Part shown: positions 29,022-51,758 of the stretch, piece after piece
Position numbering within the stretch: position 1 is the first letter of the stretch
Layout: each line of letters begins with the position of its first letter
Virus record (IMG/VR): IMGVR_UViG_3300036800_000162
Span: 1-62,507 of that record
From: a virus
Lineage: Duplodnaviria > Caudoviricetes
DNA: 62,507 nt
Strand: one strand, 5' to 3'
Translations under genes and position numbers: made by a program
The notes under the pieces: generated by a model
The model's database searches: none
Seen by the model: only the letters and a program-made list of their open reading frames with translations
Told to the model about the DNA's origin: nothing

Positions 29022-29419
29022 ATGCCCACATGGACGACGACGCACCCGCCTGGCTCGGCTGGGCGTCAGGCAAGAACGCCTGGCACTTTCAGCGACGCTT
29101 GTGGGAGCGCTACGGACTGGTGCTGCAATTCGGCGCGTATTCAGAGATCCAGCGGTCAATCCGCAGCGGCGCCTGCCACCACATCGCGCGCGGCAAGCGT
29201 GATCACGTCTGGTTCGTGCCACTGCAAGGCCACATCATCGCCGTGGTCGCCGAGCCAATGACGTGCCGGCTGATCACGGTCCTGCCGCGTGACCTGCTGC
29301 AAGGCCGCTGCGTTAGGATCGCGGCGACCGCGCACGACAAGCCAAAGTCACCAGCAGAGCGTGTGTGGGATGACGCCACCGCGCGGCGGGACAGCGTCAC
29401 GGTGACAGCCGGGCAGTGA
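29022..29419 (+). CDS. Hypothetical protein
   Basis: HFQRRLWERYG...LITVLP; ends at a GC hairpin; start approximate. Confidence 0.5.
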
Positions 29420-29427
29420 ACGGTGGA

Positions 29428-29450
29428 CGCGGGGCATTGCCTACCCCGCG
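29428..29450. terminator. GC hairpin between convergent transcripts
   Basis: CGCGGGG-cattgccta-CCCCGCG; no clear U-tract. Confidence 0.4.
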
Positions 29451-29457
29451 CCCGATG

Positions 29458-29530
29458 TTTGGGTCGCCGGATTCGAACCAGCGACACCCAGATTACAATT
29501 CTGGTGCTCTACCAACTGAGCTAGACCCTT
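29458..29530 (-). tRNA. tRNA-Thr(UGU)-like with defective acceptor stem
   Basis: AAGGGTC TA GCTC-AGTTGGTA-GAGC A CCAGA-ATTGTAA-TCTGG GTGTC GCTGG-TTCGAAT-CCGGC GACCCAA A; A1.A72 and A2.A71 mismatches, A32, no CCA. Confidence 0.75.
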
Positions 29531-29548
29531 GGTTGCACACTGGGTTTC

Positions 29549-29669
29549 GCTGACGTGACACCTCATGCTGATCCGCACGCACGCCCACTGTGCTACGCTC
29601 CATCAGGGATGATGGCTGGAGCGGCCGGATTTGAACCGGCGTCTTGCGGTCTCGGGATGCCGTCGCAGC
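29549..29669 (-). ncRNA. Circularly permuted tRNA mimic (YrlA/Y-RNA-like)
   Basis: 5' stem, CCGCA, T-arm GCCGG-TTCAAAT-CCGGC, acceptor CGCTCCA/TGGAGCG closed by a 14-nt loop, D-arm GCAC/GTGC, TGCGG, 3' stem. Confidence 0.75.
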
Positions 29670-29697
29670 TAGTTCCAGATACGCATTTATAAAGCTA

Positions 29698-29755
29698 CAG
29701 GGCAAGACGCTGAAGCTGGCGCCTGAAGCTGACGATAAGGCTGAAGCTGGCCCTG
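29698..29755 (-). repeat. Stem-closed loop with three CAGCTTCAG repeats
   Basis: + strand ctgaagctg at 29710, 29723 and 29741; closing stem CAGGGC/GCCCTG. Confidence 0.8.
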
Positions 29756-29763
29756 GGGGCGGA

Positions 29764-29838
29764 TGGAGCCGCGGGCACGGAATTGAACCGGCATCAACCA
29801 CTGACAAGGTGGCTGCTCTAGCATTGAGCTACCGCGGC
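29764..29838 (-). tRNA. tRNA-Thr(UGU)-like, atypical
   Basis: GCCGCGG TA GCTC-AATGCTA-GAGC A GCCAC-CTTGTCA-GTGGT TGAT GCCGG-TTCAATT-CCGTGC CCGCGGC T CCA; no D-loop GG, C37, bulged T-stem. Confidence 0.75.
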
Positions 29839-29844
29839 AAACTC

Positions 29845-30609
29845 TTAGGCGACGATGCCATCATGCAGATACTCGAACAGCACCTTGCCGATCTGGCGCT
29901 TCTCGACCTCCGTGTTGTTGGCCCGCTGGCGCGCCCGCTTGACCGCACGCAGCAGCCGGTCAACGCGTTCCAACAACGCGCTTTTCTGCGCCGTGGTGAT
30001 CATGCCGCTGCGCCGCGTGGTGGCGATGCGTGCGATCGGGGCATCTTCCTGGATCGCCTGCACCTGCGCCGGGTGTTCCTTGGTCGCCTCGGCCATGATG
30101 ATCGGCTTGACCAGCCGCTTGGTGCGAAACGTCACATCCGGATCGCGCGCGCGATACACGCCGCCCCCAGTGCGGGCGTCGGCGTCCAACTCCCACACCG
30201 GACCTGGCGCCAGTGTCGGGATCGCCAGATATACCTCGCGCAACTCGGCCAGCTTGGCCTCCATCCCGAGCAACACAGCCCCCGGCACATTCTCGGCCAG
30301 CACACACTCGCCGACGACGATGTCGGCGACCGCCTTCTGGTTGGTCGCCTCGCGCTGCAAGAACGCGTCCAACGCCCGCACGTTCGGCCCGGCGTTGTAC
30401 AGCAGCTTGTCGAACACCGTAGTCACCATCGCGCTGGTCTCGGTGGTGTCCAGCTTGCGGTCATCCTCGGCGAAATACGTGACCGTCTTGACCGTTTCGA
30501 TGAAGTGCTCATCCTTCTTACCGAAGGTGCGCACCGTCTCCTCATTGGTCCGCCTCGCCGTGGTCTGCAAGCCGCTCTCCACGGCCAGCACTTCATGCAG
30601 CTTGGGCAT
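29845..30609 (-). CDS. Conserved helical protein (DUF7873-like, from memory) heading the ncRNA array
   Basis: KLHEVLAVE, NQKAVADIVV..VP..LLGME.KL, IPTLAP..W, EATKEHPAQVQ, AVKRARQRANNTEV. Confidence 0.7.
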   Translation of the reverse strand: MPKLHEVLAVESGLQTTARRTNEETVRTFGKKDEHFIETVKTVTYFAEDDRKLDTTETSAMVTTVFDKLLYNAGPNVRALDAFLQREATNQKAVADIVVGECVLAENVPGAVLLGMEAKLAELREVYLAIPTLAPGPVWELDADARTGGGVYRARDPDVTFRTKRLVKPIIMAEATKEHPAQVQAIQEDAPIARIATTRRSGMITTAQKSALLERVDRLLRAVKRARQRANNTEVEKRQIGKVLFEYLHDGIVA

Positions 30610-30640
30610 GGCGCGATCTCTCAATTGCCTTCACGGCAAC

Positions 30641-32056
30641 CTACATACTTGCGCCGCCGGCAGTGTCAACCCCCGCCGCCCACAACGCAAGGTCCGCAGT
30701 CACTTGCGTGATCACCGGCTGCCAGGCGCCGAGCGCCGGCTGGCGGTAGATCGTCATCGCCGGATACCACACCGTGCTCGTGCCGGCATTCAGCCAGCGC
30801 CAGCACCCGTTGGCCCGCGCCAGCAGCCAGGTCGGCACACCGAGGCTGGCCGCAAGATGCGCCACTGCGGTATCCACCGTGATCACCAGGTCAAGGCCGG
30901 CGACGACGCAGGCCGTGTCATACCAATCGTTGCACCCCCACTGTGTTAGATCCTCTTGCTGAAGCGAGATCCACGGCACCACGTCGGTGAGCGGGGCGAT
31001 CATCTCGCGAGAGATGCTGCGGCGCAGGTCGTCGGCGTGCGCCATCGGGTCATGCGCACGCGCGCCGCCGTGCCAGCATAGGCCGAGCCTGGCGCCGAGC
31101 CGGCGCGGCGCAACATGATATTCGGCCGGCGGCGGACGGGTCTCCAACGTCGTGGCGAACACCGCCGGCAGGCTCATCAGCGTGGTGACGATGTCATAAC
31201 CAGCCGCGTCTGCGGCGCTGCCGACGTGGGCCTCTGCCGCGGCCAGCAGACGCACCAGCGACTCCTGCGTCTCGACATGCACCACGGCGGCTAGTTGCTG
31301 CACCAGCGGAATATACCGGGCGAACTGGATGGTGTCGCCATAGCCTTGTTCCGAGCGCAGCAGCACGCGCTTGCCGCGCAGGCCCTCCGGCTGGCCGCAC
31401 CAGATCCGCGGCGGGACGTAATCCCACGGCGCGCCGAACGGCGGATGGCGCAGCACCGCCTGGCGCCGCTGCCATCCTTCCGTCCACCGACCGCCGCGCA
31501 ACAGGGTGAAACCGAGGCCCATCTCGGCCTCGGTGAACGCCGGGTCGATCTCCAACGCGCGGCGATATTCGTTCTCGGCCGAGGCGTCATTGCCGAACAG
31601 ACTAAGGCCGGTGCCGTAACCACACCGCACCTCGGCGTCCTTCGGCGCCAGCGCGGCGGCGTAGCCGTAGAGTGCCAGGCCAAGGGCGAAATGTTCGGTC
31701 AACAGACAGACATGCGCGAGCCGCACCAGCGCCTTGGTGCAGTTGGGATTGAGCGCCAGGCAGCGTTCGTAGCAAGCCGCCGCCGGCTCGAACTGCCCCA
31801 GCTTATGGTGGCAGAAGCCTTGGTTGTAATGCGCAGAGTAATCGAGCGGGCGGATGGTTCCGGCGGTTTTCAGCAAGCCGATCGCTGGTTCCCACTGGTG
31901 CTGCTTCATGTGCCAGTAGGCCGAGACCGACAGCAAGTCGAAGCGATCGGTATCACCGACACCGGCCAGCATATCCAGCAGATCACGCGAGGTAACGATG
32001 TCGCCGCGCGTGATCAGGTCATACGCGTCACGGACACTCCGGCTCGCCTCCGTCAC
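30641..32056 (-). CDS. TPR-repeat glycosyltransferase (GT9-like)
   Basis: TPRs, then SEQGYGDTIQFARY, LDLVITVDTAVAHLAASLGVP, WRW...WYP. Confidence 0.85.
   Translation of the reverse strand: MTEASRSVRDAYDLITRGDIVTSRDLLDMLAGVGDTDRFDLLSVSAYWHMKQHQWEPAIGLLKTAGTIRPLDYSAHYNQGFCHHKLGQFEPAAACYERCLALNPNCTKALVRLAHVCLLTEHFALGLALYGYAAALAPKDAEVRCGYGTGLSLFGNDASAENEYRRALEIDPAFTEAEMGLGFTLLRGGRWTEGWQRRQAVLRHPPFGAPWDYVPPRIWCGQPEGLRGKRVLLRSEQGYGDTIQFARYIPLVQQLAAVVHVETQESLVRLLAAAEAHVGSAADAAGYDIVTTLMSLPAVFATTLETRPPPAEYHVAPRRLGARLGLCWHGGARAHDPMAHADDLRRSISREMIAPLTDVVPWISLQQEDLTQWGCNDWYDTACVVAGLDLVITVDTAVAHLAASLGVPTWLLARANGCWRWLNAGTSTVWYPAMTIYRQPALGAWQPVITQVTADLALWAAGVDTAGGASM
30642..30669 (-). promoter_or_regulatory. 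Candidate sigma70 promoter for the protein+ncRNA locus
   Basis: TTGACA-16 nt-TATGTA about 33 nt upstream of ATG 30609. Confidence 0.4.
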
Positions 32057-50944: not shown

Positions 50945-51675
50945 GATTGACATCGGACACAAAGCTACAATTCGAGGATAACGATCTCGAACGGATCGGC
51001 GATATGCTCGCCCGGTCGCTGGCGCGTGCCTTGGTCAGCGCAGTCAGGACGCTGGCGCGCGATCCGATCCTGGGAGCGTTTCTCGGCCGGGCCGCCGCTG
51101 ACCAGCCAGCTACGCCAGCCCGCGAGGCAGCGCAGGAGCCTCTGCCGGATGCAGCTAGGCCACCAGCCATCCCAGAGCCGGCCGTCACAGCGCCGCCGGA
51201 GCCGGTCTCACAGCGCTATGCGGAGCAACCGTACTCGCTGGGTGCCAGGGCGGCGATCAGACCGCTCGACCTCGCCGCGCGCCAGCCGGAAGCCGTGCCA
51301 GCGCACCCCGCCCCACGGCCTCGCCCTGCGGAAACGCCCGCCACAAAAGCGCCCCGCCGGTCGTTGCGGCAGGTCTGCAAGACGGTGGCAAAACGGCCTG
51401 GCGGATATATCACCACGGATGACGCGGTGGAGATCCTGGCTGGCGTGCGGCCGGATAGCGCCGGGCAGATGATATTCCAGTGGATCTGGGCGGGTGAGAT
51501 TGCGGCGGTGATCGTCGCCGAGTTTCGCGGTAAGCCGACAAAAGGCCTGCCGGGACGGCTGATGGTGGATCGGAAATCCGTGATCGCACGGAACACGCAA
51601 CGCCTCGCCAATCGCGCAGTCGCACCGCGGCTACGGCAGACGGCGACAAAAGTTGATCAGCATGTGGCGGCATAG
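50935..51675 (+). CDS. Hypothetical protein with C-terminal HTH-like region
   Basis: Pro-rich linker; YITTDDAVEIL..IFQWI. Confidence 0.5.
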   Translation: MAVRLTSDTKLQFEDNDLERIGDMLARSLARALVSAVRTLARDPILGAFLGRAAADQPATPAREAAQEPLPDAARPPAIPEPAVTAPPEPVSQRYAEQPYSLGARAAIRPLDLAARQPEAVPAHPAPRPRPAETPATKAPRRSLRQVCKTVAKRPGGYITTDDAVEILAGVRPDSAGQMIFQWIWAGEIAAVIVAEFRGKPTKGLPGRLMVDRKSVIARNTQRLANRAVAPRLRQTATKVDQHVAA

Positions 51676-51758
51676 CGGAACTGGTAGACGCTGCGGGACT
51701 GTGAATCCCGTGGGTGCCCCAAAGGCGCTTGGGGGTTCGAGTCCCCCTGCCGCTGCCA
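51666..51758 (+). tRNA. Long-variable-arm tRNA with GUG (His) anticodon and Leu/Ser-like body
   Basis: GGCGGCA TA GCG-GAACTGGTAGA-CGC T GCGGGA-CTGTGAA-TCCCGT GGGTGCC-CCAAA-GGCGCTT GGGGG-TTCGAGT-CCCCC TGCCGCT G CCA. Confidence 0.8.

What the first reader, a model, noticed from the sequence alone, without database searches (positions are those of the whole stretch)
29428..30669. Candidate undescribed ribonucleoprotein system: one protein gene followed by a tRNA-punctuated ncRNA array
Seen, on the minus strand in order: candidate TTGACA promoter; a 254-aa helical protein; 6 nt after its stop an atypical tRNA(UGU); a stem-closed loop of three CAGCUUCAG repeats; a circularly permuted tRNA mimic; a second tRNA(UGU) with a broken acceptor stem; a GC hairpin. 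From memory (unverified) the protein resembles the functionally unknown DUF7873 family. Inference: the two flanking tRNA-like elements look unfit for decoding and may serve as RNase P/RNase Z punctuation that releases the two inner RNAs. The protein would then bind the repeat RNA, either as an RNA-antitoxin/scaffold pair or as a module countering host tRNA-targeting defence or hijacking RNA repair.
Basis: partly seen in the sequence, partly recalled or inferred. Interest (0 to 1): 0.92.

Follow-up and report, generated by a model that had tools for sequence, protein, structure and literature searches.

The report
Phage tRNA-mimic RNA partnered with DUF7873
This phage carries a gene of unknown function followed by a folded RNA built around a back-to-front tRNA look-alike, a gene-RNA pair that recurs in many unrelated phages and probably forms an undescribed RNA-protein particle.

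Summary
The window is a complete 62.5-kb phage record. On the minus strand the 254-aa protein is a full-length DUF7873 (Pfam E 1e-70). Six bases after its stop come an atypical tRNA(UGU), a stem-closed loop with three CAGCUUCAG copies, a circularly permuted tRNA-like element, a second tRNA(UGU) with a 5-bp acceptor stem, and a GC hairpin. Only the promoter is weak.

The pairing is general. A covariance model of the permuted element scores at least 47 bits just downstream of DUF7873, on the same strand, in 54 of 57 viral loci and 15 of 17 independent metagenome-bin loci. It is the best hit in 5 of 5 whole phage genomes. No other neighbouring gene is conserved.

The RNA resembles YrlA Y RNAs but stays below Rfam's threshold. 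It lacks the Ro-binding motif seen beside Rsr in one of these phages, and it usually occurs without any Ro60 gene. The repeats are tandem hexamers and recur across the family. DUF7873 has no known fold and is predicted to form a homodimer.

Best reading: a non-Ro RNA-protein particle processed by tRNA enzymes. Binding, processing and function are inferred. This scan noted the same pair in at least 209 other genomes. I found no paper describing it.

The parts
30664..30669 (-). Exact TTGACA hexamer upstream of the gene; a possible -35 box only.
   Evidence: Read. The promoter scan found 0 sites in 29300-30800. A TTGAC(A/G) box is present upstream in L002, L011 and L012.
29845..30609 (-). DUF7873 protein gene, 254 aa plus stop.
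   Evidence: Pfam PF25283, E 1.2e-70. AF2 model pLDDT 86. Homodimer prediction 0.72 against control 0.00.
29764..29838 (-). Leading atypical tRNA-like element: anticodon UGU, C37, an extra U in the T stem, and an encoded CCA.
   Evidence: ARAGORN. Rfam tRNA 50.2 bits. Conserved with anticodon CGU in L002, L011 and L012.
29698..29755 (-). 5' domain: a 6-bp stem (CAGGGC/GCCCUG) closing a loop of tandem hexamers of the form YAGNNU. It includes three CAGCUUCAG copies at 29741-29749, 29723-29731 and 29710-29718.
   Evidence: Equivalent stem-closed repeat loops were read in other loci. Hexamer enrichment is shown.
29687..29697 (-). A further motif copy directly 3' of the stem. It is degenerate here; most relatives have a CAGCUUCAGG-type copy.
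   Evidence: conserved block in the alignment.
29650..29685 (-). 5' strand of the long interrupted outer helix, with the internal-loop side AACUA at 29670-29674.
   Evidence: Duplex prediction and constrained fold.
29571..29652 (-). Circularly permuted, anticodon-less tRNA-like core. Components: stem 29645-29649 with 29573-29577; T arm 29624-29640; acceptor 29617-29623 with 29596-29602; G-CCA 29613-29616; loop 29603-29612; D arm 29579-29593.
   Evidence: Model R1, 72.9 bits. Covariation of all 21 pairs. RNAalifold predicts the T, acceptor and D stems on its own.
29561..29572 (-). Conserved single-stranded motif copy just after the anticodon-like stem. The family pattern is U-N-A-R-N-N-U-N-A-R.
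   Evidence: Alignments.
29534..29560 (-). 3' strand of the outer helix, with the internal-loop side GAAAC at 29544-29548. It ends 4 nt before the trailing tRNA.
29457..29530 (-). Trailing tRNA-like element: anticodon UGU, 5-bp acceptor stem under two A-A mismatches, no CCA.
   Evidence: ARAGORN. Rfam 53 bits with 5 acceptor pairs. Its anticodon loop differs at 4 of 7 positions in the 98%-identity relative.
29426..29452 (-). GC-rich hairpin that closes the unit, without a T run.
   Evidence: Read. Conserved in L002. Not called by the terminator scan.

Best explanation
This is one copy of a widespread phage two-part module: the DUF7873 protein and a structured RNA of about 310 nt encoded just downstream on the same strand.

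The RNA has a 5' stem-closed loop filled with tandem hexamer repeats. A long interrupted helix with a conserved internal loop follows. At its tip sits a circularly permuted tRNA look-alike with T arm, 7-bp acceptor stem with N-CCA, and D arm, but no anticodon loop. In this phage's clade the RNA is bracketed by two tRNA-like elements.

I infer three steps. First, DUF7873, probably as a homodimer, binds the repeated hexamer motif to form a stable RNA-protein particle that needs no Ro60. Second, host tRNA enzymes process the RNA: RNase P cuts at the acceptor 5' strand and at the trailing tRNA, and 3' trimming or CCA addition finishes the acceptor 3' strand. The product would be a two-piece, CCA-ended tRNA mimic. 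Third, the tRNA-like head engages a host tRNA-binding factor during infection, as a decoy or an adaptor.

The gene-RNA linkage and the RNA fold are shown here. Binding, processing and function are inferred.
For: Linkage:
- R1 hits of at least 47 bits lie within 1 kb downstream, on the same strand, in 54 of 57 viral or phage sources with enough downstream DNA. Sixteen of those were not used to build the model.
- The same holds in 15 of 17 independent genome-bin loci.
- The best hit in 5 of 5 whole phage records is the one after DUF7873.
- Among 58 loci, no other protein cluster is shared by more than 4 loci, apart from antisense shadows of the gene itself.
- In an RNA-first scan, 8 of 16 true permuted elements had DUF7873 ending 157-253 nt upstream, against 0 of 62 tandem-tRNA matches.

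Fold:
- 91.5% of cells pair, against 58.7% when shuffled.
- 21 of 21 pairs show double changes.
- The covariation score is 0.845, against at most 0.20 for slid controls.
- RNAalifold independently finds the T, acceptor and D stems; 15 of its 16 pairs are compensated.

Processing hints:
- N-CCA follows the acceptor 3' strand in 34 of 42 elements.
- M. smegmatis YrlA, which also has a 7-bp acceptor stem, is cut by RNase P and receives CCA in vivo (PMC4201824, passages read).
- A tRNA starts 41-61 nt after the element in 22 of 54 loci.
- In the window the helix ends 4 nt before that tRNA.

Repeats:
- Adjacent AG..U.AG hexamer pairs number 69 observed, against 12.6 in shuffles and 9 in coding controls, over 42 loci.
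- The window has 3 against a mean of 0.24, and 0 of 200 shuffles reach 3.

Protein:
- The homodimer model scores 0.72, with the best of 3 controls at 0.00.
- That mark was reached by 20 of 30 proteins solved as pairs of one chain and by 1 of 23 solved as single chains.
- The runs agree in at least 96% of contacts, and the partner's pLDDT is at least 89.
Against: - No data on transcription, RNA ends or binding exist for this locus.
- 38 of the 54 positive viral loci were themselves used to train the model, and a 7/7 acceptor complementarity was a selection rule of my first finder.
- Exceptions: L050 scores 40 bits. L068 scores 32 bits. L059 has its hit 1.8 kb away. L070 has none. L081 has its hit upstream of the gene. 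L070 and L081 have truncated genes.
- The strict hexamer motif is absent (0 adjacent pairs) in 15 of 42 loci, which carry other repeat variants.
- In some loci a terminator-like hairpin separates gene and RNA, so they need not share a transcript.
- In the closest relative an extra ORF sits between gene and RNA.
- 7 of 16 permuted elements found RNA-first lie in records without DUF7873, so the tRNA-mimic core is not exclusive to this protein.
- My rigid test for a loop-E geometry failed: 2 of 42 loci.
- My naive search for the 5' stem did no better than shuffles.
- The protein shows no recognisable RNA-binding fold.
Confidence: 0.55

Rival explanations
1. DUF7873 is an enzyme (nuclease, ligase, modifier or repair factor) that acts on tRNAs or on this RNA. 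The adjacent RNA would be its substrate, guide or regulator rather than a stable partner.
For: The gene-RNA linkage is the same. The family has invariant polar residues, including H5, E6, E24, K31, N90, R124, H179, Q182, D189 and K224. The module sits inside phage tRNA clusters. The anticodon loop of the trailing tRNA changes fast between close relatives.
Against: No match to any enzyme family or fold. The repeated hexamers look more like multiple binding sites than a single substrate site.
Confidence: 0.2
2. The RNA is an ordinary YrlA-type Y RNA that uses the host's Ro60/Rsr. DUF7873 would be only an accessory or a bystander.
For: Rfam YrlA (RF02553) aligns end to end with relatives at 31-43 bits, with E as low as 1e-6 in a 33-kb search. 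The topology is the same. Rhizobium phage RHph_Y65 has both DUF7873 and Rsr.
Against: All scores fall below the gathering score of 69, and the window's own element is not reported even at E up to 10. In RHph_Y65, Rsr has its own upstream units, each with a GUUGCGA-type motif that the RNA after DUF7873 lacks. TROVE is absent from 4 of the 5 records tested, including the window. About 5% of bacterial genomes encode Ro60 (PMC4201824, passage).
Confidence: 0.07
3. A type III toxin-antitoxin-like pair: the repeat RNA would neutralise a toxic DUF7873.
For: A repeat-bearing RNA lies next to a small protein gene.
Against: No PADLOC hit. The units are 6 nt long and lie within a stem-closed loop of a larger structured RNA with a tRNA-like domain. 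This differs from the tandem units of about 36 nt upstream of the toxin gene in ToxIN, which I recall rather than tested. The module lies in tRNA clusters of lytic-type and jumbo phages.
Confidence: 0.05
4. A two-piece, tmRNA-like ribosome-rescue RNA.
For: The arrangement is permuted like two-piece tmRNA genes, with a CCA end. There are weak partial hits to beta_tmRNA over the T-arm and acceptor part.
Against: ARAGORN calls no tmRNA here. No Rfam tmRNA family hit appears in the window at E up to 1. Acceptor stems and discriminators vary with no fixed G3:U70. No reading frame through the repeats is conserved (read). Some loci carry a separate standard tmRNA (L042, L046).
Confidence: 0.03
5. A plain phage tRNA cluster with decayed tRNA genes, lying next to an unrelated gene by chance.
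For: Two elements are called as tRNAs. Tandem tRNA junctions can mimic the signature, scoring up to 45.7 bits.
Against: The acceptor strands of the permuted element pair with each other and covary. ARAGORN calls no tRNA over it. The adjacency to DUF7873 holds across hosts from Vibrio to Gordonia. 0 of 62 tandem-tRNA matches have DUF7873 in the locus.
Confidence: 0.03

Closest known systems
YrlA-class bacterial and phage Y RNAs with Ro60/Rsr (Rfam RF02553; Chen et al. 2014, PMC4201824)
   Same: The topology matches: the 5' and 3' ends pair in a long stem, and the tip is a tRNA-like module in the order T arm, acceptor stem-loop, D arm, with no anticodon loop. Rfam's model aligns over its full length with relatives. 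The M. smegmatis member also has a 7-bp acceptor stem, is cut by RNase P and gains CCA.
   Different: Scores are 31-43 bits against a gathering score of 69, and none is reported for the window itself. There is no Ro-binding GNCGAA-type motif and usually no Ro60 gene. The partner gene is the unrelated DUF7873. There is an added 5' hexamer-repeat domain and, often, a trailing tRNA at a fixed distance.
Two-piece (circularly permuted) tmRNA
   Same: The tRNA-like domain is encoded with its 3' half before its 5' half, with CCA. It is expected to be split by processing into two base-paired pieces.
   Different: There is no tag reading frame, no alanine identity pair, a true D stem, and no tmRNA call by ARAGORN or Rfam.
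Repeat-RNA-binding oligomers such as TRAP or HutP with NAG-triplet arrays (recalled, not tested)
   Same: Evenly spaced NAG-containing repeats could be read by a multimeric protein.
   Different: There is no sequence or fold relation to those proteins. Only a dimer was modelled here. Binding is untested.
tRNA-like 3'-end processing signals such as mascRNA of MALAT1 (PMC11693755; search listing only)
   Same: A tRNA-like element directly downstream could set the 3' end of the upstream RNA through RNase P cleavage.
   Different: That is a eukaryotic nuclear system. Here the idea rests only on the fixed spacing.

Membership tests
Pfam DUF7873 (PF25283) | Score above the curated cut-off over the full profile | tested here: met
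   238.5 bits against 27; profile positions 1-242 of 244.
YrlA (Rfam RF02553) | Covariance-model score at or above the gathering score of 69 bits | tested here: not met
   The window is not reported at E up to 1 or up to 10. Relatives score 31.3-43.3 bits.
YrlA / bacterial Y RNA | Encoded near, and bound by, a Ro60/Rsr (TROVE) protein | tested here: not met
   There is no TROVE match in the window's complete record, nor in 3 of the 4 other records tested. Binding itself cannot be tested here.
YrlA / bacterial Y RNA | GNCGAA-type Ro-binding motif near the 5' end | tested here: not met
   The Rsr-linked units of RHph_Y65 each carry a GUUGCGA-type motif. The RNA after DUF7873 in that phage, and the RNA in the window, show none at that place.
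YrlA / bacterial Y RNA | tRNA-like module in the order T arm, acceptor stem-loop, D arm, closed by a terminal stem | tested here: met
Canonical decoding tRNA (the two flanking elements) | 7-bp acceptor stem, purine at position 37, regular T stem, CCA end or the ability to gain one | tested here: inconclusive
   Both pass Rfam tRNA (50.2 and 53 bits). The leading one has C37 and an extra T-stem base. The trailing one has 5 acceptor pairs and no CCA. Its anticodon is UGU here and UAA in the 98%-identity relative. Charging cannot be tested here.
tmRNA (standard or permuted) | Detection by ARAGORN or by the Rfam tmRNA models, plus a tag reading frame | tested here: not met
   No tmRNA in the window. 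Relatives give only partial T-arm/acceptor hits of 12-25 bits against a gathering score of 84.
Known anti-phage defence or toxin-antitoxin proteins (PADLOC) | Profile match | tested here: not met
   0 families at E up to 0.1.

The most novel reading that the evidence does not exclude
DUF7873 and its RNA form a new class of phage ribonucleoprotein that is independent of Ro60. Protein dimers would line up on the hexamer array. The RNase P-split, CCA-ended tRNA mimic, together with a trailing tRNA-like element whose anticodon loop evolves fast, would act as bait or shield against host nucleases that cut tRNAs. This would be a widespread counter-defence organised around tRNA mimicry.
Probability: 0.2. 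Interest if true: 0.9.

Novelty: new variant of a known kind. Interest (0 to 1): 0.75.

Why it matters
DUF7873 is a large, uniform family. A profile search found 2379 representative clusters at E up to 0.001, and the 150 best-scoring hits (the only ones listed) are single-domain proteins of 244-278 aa. It occurs in cultured phages of Vibrio, Rhizobium, Gordonia, Klebsiella, Serratia, Arthrobacter, Ralstonia and cyanobacteria.

Tying the family to a defined structured RNA turns a protein of unknown function into a testable RNA-protein system. It also shows that tRNA-mimicking Y-like RNAs have at least one protein partner other than Ro60.

Because the module sits among phage tRNA genes, it bears on an open question: why phages carry tRNA clusters, and how they cope with host attacks on tRNAs. 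Several hosts are easy to grow, so binding, processing and knockout tests are possible straight away.

Tried and rejected
- Fold searches with the monomer model gave no clear match. Foldseek against PDB: best E 0.039. VIA wide: best Z 8.9, to a designed protein, which is within the noise range. BFVD: best E 0.0098.
- The PDB sequence profile search gave a best E of 0.37.
- PHROGs, NCBIfam and PADLOC gave 0 families.
- The ESM Atlas gave a best score of 0.80, which is chance level.
- Unconstrained MFE folding of the region is no better than shuffles, with z-scores of -0.68 and -0.05.
- My rigid AGUA/GAA loop-E test passed in only 2 of 42 loci. The internal loop is therefore described only as conserved in place.
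- A naive longest-stem search for the 5' stem scored 9.8 against 9.9 for shuffles. That stem rests on reading and on the constrained fold.
- MAFFT plus RNAalifold did not recover the outer helix because the flanks misalign.
- Sequencing runs: no RNA holder was listed. Three soil DNA runs hold the stretch or part of it, one of which may be its source.
- Literature: 'DUF7873' gave 0 papers. None of the papers listed for 'YrlA' plus phage, 'permuted tRNA' plus bacteriophage, 'Y RNA' plus Rsr plus phage plus tRNA-like, 'YrlA' since 2018 or tRNA mimic plus phage terms describes this pair.
- I read passages of PMC4201824.
- I read passages of PMC10690425.
- I rejected an attP or split-tRNA-gene origin because the two halves covary as one fold.


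Full report
**What the window is.** The window is a whole IMG/VR virus record of 62,507 bases, rated 100% complete. A large-terminase-like gene lies just downstream of the finding on the same strand; its only Pfam hit is Terminase_6C at 16.8 bits, below the 22.6 cut-off. A gene for a TPR protein with a weak glycosyltransferase-9-like stretch lies just upstream.

**The observation.** On the minus strand the ORF 30609-29845 encodes 254 aa. It matches Pfam DUF7873 end to end, E 1.2e-70. ARAGORN and Rfam call two tRNA-Thr(UGU) genes, at 29838-29764 and 29530-29457.
- The first starts 6 nt after the stop. It has C at position 37, an extra base in the T stem and an encoded CCA.
- The second pairs only 5 acceptor positions and lacks CCA.
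- Between them are three exact CAGCUUCAG copies. The window holds 6 in all against 0.43 expected, and 0 of 100 shuffles reach 6. The three lie inside a 6-bp stem.
- A tRNA written back to front follows: T arm, acceptor 3' strand, G-CCA, a 10-nt loop, acceptor 5' strand, D arm. Two 5-nt strands flank it and pair like an anticodon stem.
- A GC hairpin ends the unit.
- The exact TTGACA upstream is there, but the promoter scan finds no full site.

**Is it more than a local oddity?** DUF7873 relatives are abundant.
- The large protein collection holds 751 with E up to 0.001.
- A profile search finds 2379 clusters at 50% identity. The 150 listed are all 244-278 aa.
- 75 deposited phage genomes carry it, from Vibrio, Rhizobium, Gordonia, Klebsiella, Serratia, Arthrobacter, Ralstonia and cyanobacterial hosts.
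- In every annotated record I opened, the gene is followed by an unannotated gap or by tiny doubtful ORFs, often within a tRNA cluster.
- Reading those gaps showed the same permuted tRNA-like element each time.

**The covariance model.** I built a model (R1: 89 positions, 21 base pairs) from 38 such elements.
- On that alignment 91.5% of cells pair, against 58.7% when shuffled.
- All 21 pairs show compensatory double changes.
- The covariation score is 0.845, against at most 0.20 when partners are slid.
- One caveat: my first finder required full acceptor complementarity, so that helix's 100% pairing is partly by selection. The T, D and anticodon-like stems were not selected in that way.
- RNAalifold, given 26 longer sequences, predicted the T, acceptor and D stems unaided.

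**Association counts.**
- I searched 59 sources: the window plus 58 loci, 388 kb in total. R1 scores at least 47 bits within 1 kb downstream of DUF7873, on its strand, in 54 of the 57 with at least 300 nt of downstream DNA.
- Sixteen of those 54 were not in the training set. They include Gordonia phage Ronaldo, Ralstonia phage phiRSL1 and Arthrobacter phage Mimi.
- The misses are L050 (40 bits), L068 (32 bits) and L059 (57 bits, but 1.8 kb away).
- Tandem tRNA junctions give false hits of up to 45.7 bits, so the margin is narrow.
- In a separate set of 19 metagenome-bin loci, 15 of the 17 with downstream DNA are positive. The two misses have truncated genes.
- In five whole phage genomes the top R1 hit is always the one after DUF7873. 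The only other hit of at least 47 bits lies upstream of Rsr in RHph_Y65.
- Clustering all ORFs of 58 loci found no other conserved neighbour.

**The reverse test.** I scanned IMG/VR for a T-loop, CCA, D-arm pattern.
- 62 of the 80 are tandem-tRNA-like, and none of them has DUF7873.
- 18 have at least 6 of 7 complementary acceptor positions. Two of these are overlapped by tandem tRNAs.
- Of the remaining 16, 8 have DUF7873 ending 157-253 nt upstream. One more (L127) has the gene in its record; I did not check adjacency there.
- The other 7 lie in records without DUF7873 and without a clear TROVE gene. Two of those records are small fragments.
- So DUF7873 almost always has the RNA, but permuted tRNA mimics also occur in other, still unexplained, settings.

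**Relation to Y RNAs.** Rfam's YrlA model aligns over its full length with relatives, but at 31-43 bits against a gathering score of 69. It does not report the window's copy at all. TROVE/Rsr is absent from the window, from two related IMG/VR genomes and from Vibrio phage D517. The 87 phage records with TROVE and the 75 with DUF7873 overlap, by organism name, chiefly in Rhizobium phages: Rhizobium accounts for 10 of the 87 and 12 of the 75, with smaller shared counts for Vibrio and Gordonia.

One of those phages, RHph_Y65, gives an internal contrast. Upstream of its Rsr gene lie several units that each begin with a GUUGCGA-type motif, the Ro-binding type described by Chen et al. At least one of them carries a strong permuted element (60.1 bits). 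The RNA after DUF7873 in the same genome has no such motif and has AAACU-type repeats instead (PMC4201824 passages). The two proteins therefore each have their own RNA.

**Architecture beyond the core.**
- Across the family the stretch before the core holds a short stem (for example AGGGNC with GNCCCU, with many compensating variants).
- That stem closes a loop which opens with tandem hexamers, often YAGNNU. One more copy lies directly after the stem.
- Another copy lies just after the anticodon-like stem, where U and A positions are nearly invariant.
- Adjacent hexamer pairs are enriched: 69 observed, 12.6 in shuffles, 9 in coding controls, over 42 loci. 19 loci have two or more. 15 have none and use other variants.
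- The window's three 9-mers are thus part of a run of hexamers.
- The flanks of the core pair in a long interrupted helix in nearly every locus.
- In the window a constrained fold runs this helix from 29685 to 29534, 4 nt before the trailing tRNA, with a 5-by-5 internal loop (AACUA opposite GAAAC).
- Many loci have AGUA-type and GAA-type sequences at the same places, but my rigid geometric test failed. I do not claim a loop-E motif.

**The flanking tRNAs.**
- The leading tRNA is confined to the window's clade (WIN, L002, L011, L012). It keeps C37 and the T-stem irregularity, and its anticodon is UGU or CGU.
- A trailing tRNA is common. ARAGORN calls one starting 41-61 nt after the R1 match in 22 of the 54 positive loci. 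Unusual anticodons among them include UAU, UUA, AUA, AUU, AUG and AAC, and two are unassignable.
- In L011 and L012 the trailing element lacks a T arm (output).
- The window and L002 have proteins that are 98% identical. Their 424 aligned RNA columns differ at 16 places. Four of these lie in the 7-nt anticodon loop of the trailing tRNA and one in the leading anticodon. None lies in columns 160-300, which cover the helix and core.
- These elements are therefore unlikely to be ordinary decoders. The fixed spacing fits a role in defining the RNA's 3' end.

**The protein.**
- AF2 gives a confident mixed alpha/beta model (pLDDT 86) with no convincing structural relative.
- A homodimer prediction passes: score 0.72, with the best of 3 controls at 0.00. 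That mark was reached by 20 of 30 proteins solved as pairs of one chain and by 1 of 23 solved as single chains. The runs agree in at least 96% of contacts, and the partner's pLDDT is at least 89.
- The interface is very large, so the monomer model may not represent the true fold unit.

**How it most likely works.**
- Shown: a conserved gene-RNA pair and a conserved RNA fold with a tRNA-like head.
- Inferred: DUF7873 dimers bind the repeated motif.
- Inferred: RNase P and 3'-end enzymes cut the acceptor loop and the trailing tRNA junction. This draws on the analogy with M. smegmatis YrlA and is supported by N-CCA in 34 of 42 elements.
- Inferred: the tRNA-like head engages a host tRNA-binding factor.
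- The module's place in tRNA clusters and the fast-changing anticodon loops hint at a link with host attacks on tRNAs, but nothing here tests that.

**Novelty.** I found no paper describing DUF7873 or this pairing; the searches are listed under Tried and rejected. Earlier notes of this scan report the same DUF7873 and permuted-tRNA pair in at least 209 genomes, with the same closest known family. I looked at them only after reaching my own reading, and they agree with it. I file the finding as a new variant of a known kind: a YrlA-like tRNA-mimic RNA with a new, non-Ro partner and added domains.

Noticed in passing
window 51666-51758 (+): ARAGORN calls a 93-nt tRNA-His(GUG). Its sequence has a class II style D arm and a long variable arm, which is unusual for tRNA-His.
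   Followed up: partly
L117, L118, L129, L142, L152, L155, L163 (IMG/VR loci): These are permuted tRNA-like elements with a 7/7 acceptor stem and CCA, in phage records that have neither DUF7873 nor a clear TROVE gene. Several show a UACAGC-type motif about 40 nt upstream. L152 and L163 share a downstream ORF of about 470 aa. They may represent a further class of phage tRNA mimic.
   Followed up: partly
L007 4859-4936 and 5058-5155; L016 3398-3506 and 3554-3650; also L066, L067, L074, L077, L079, L080, L082: Some DUF7873 loci carry two permuted tRNA-like modules in tandem. In L007 and L016 one of the two has a class II type D arm.
   Followed up: partly
L009 380-1330 (Rhizobium phage RHph_Y65, upstream of its Rsr gene): A string of Y-RNA-like units, each starting with a GUUGCGA-type motif, some with permuted tRNA-like elements. 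This phage thus carries both an Rsr-type and a DUF7873-type RNA system about 5 kb apart.
   Followed up: partly
L002 3764-4000: In the closest relative (protein 98% identical) an extra small ORF lies between DUF7873 and the RNA array. It is absent from the window.
   Followed up: no
window 30641-32056 (-); L065 1064-2386: A TPR protein with a weak glycosyltransferase-9-like stretch lies just upstream of DUF7873 here. Gordonia phage Ronaldo has an annotated glycosyltransferase in the same place. ORF clustering did not show this neighbour to be conserved.
   Followed up: partly
L042 5005-5395; L046 5029-5376: Two DUF7873 loci also carry a standard tmRNA gene within 2 kb downstream.
   Followed up: no
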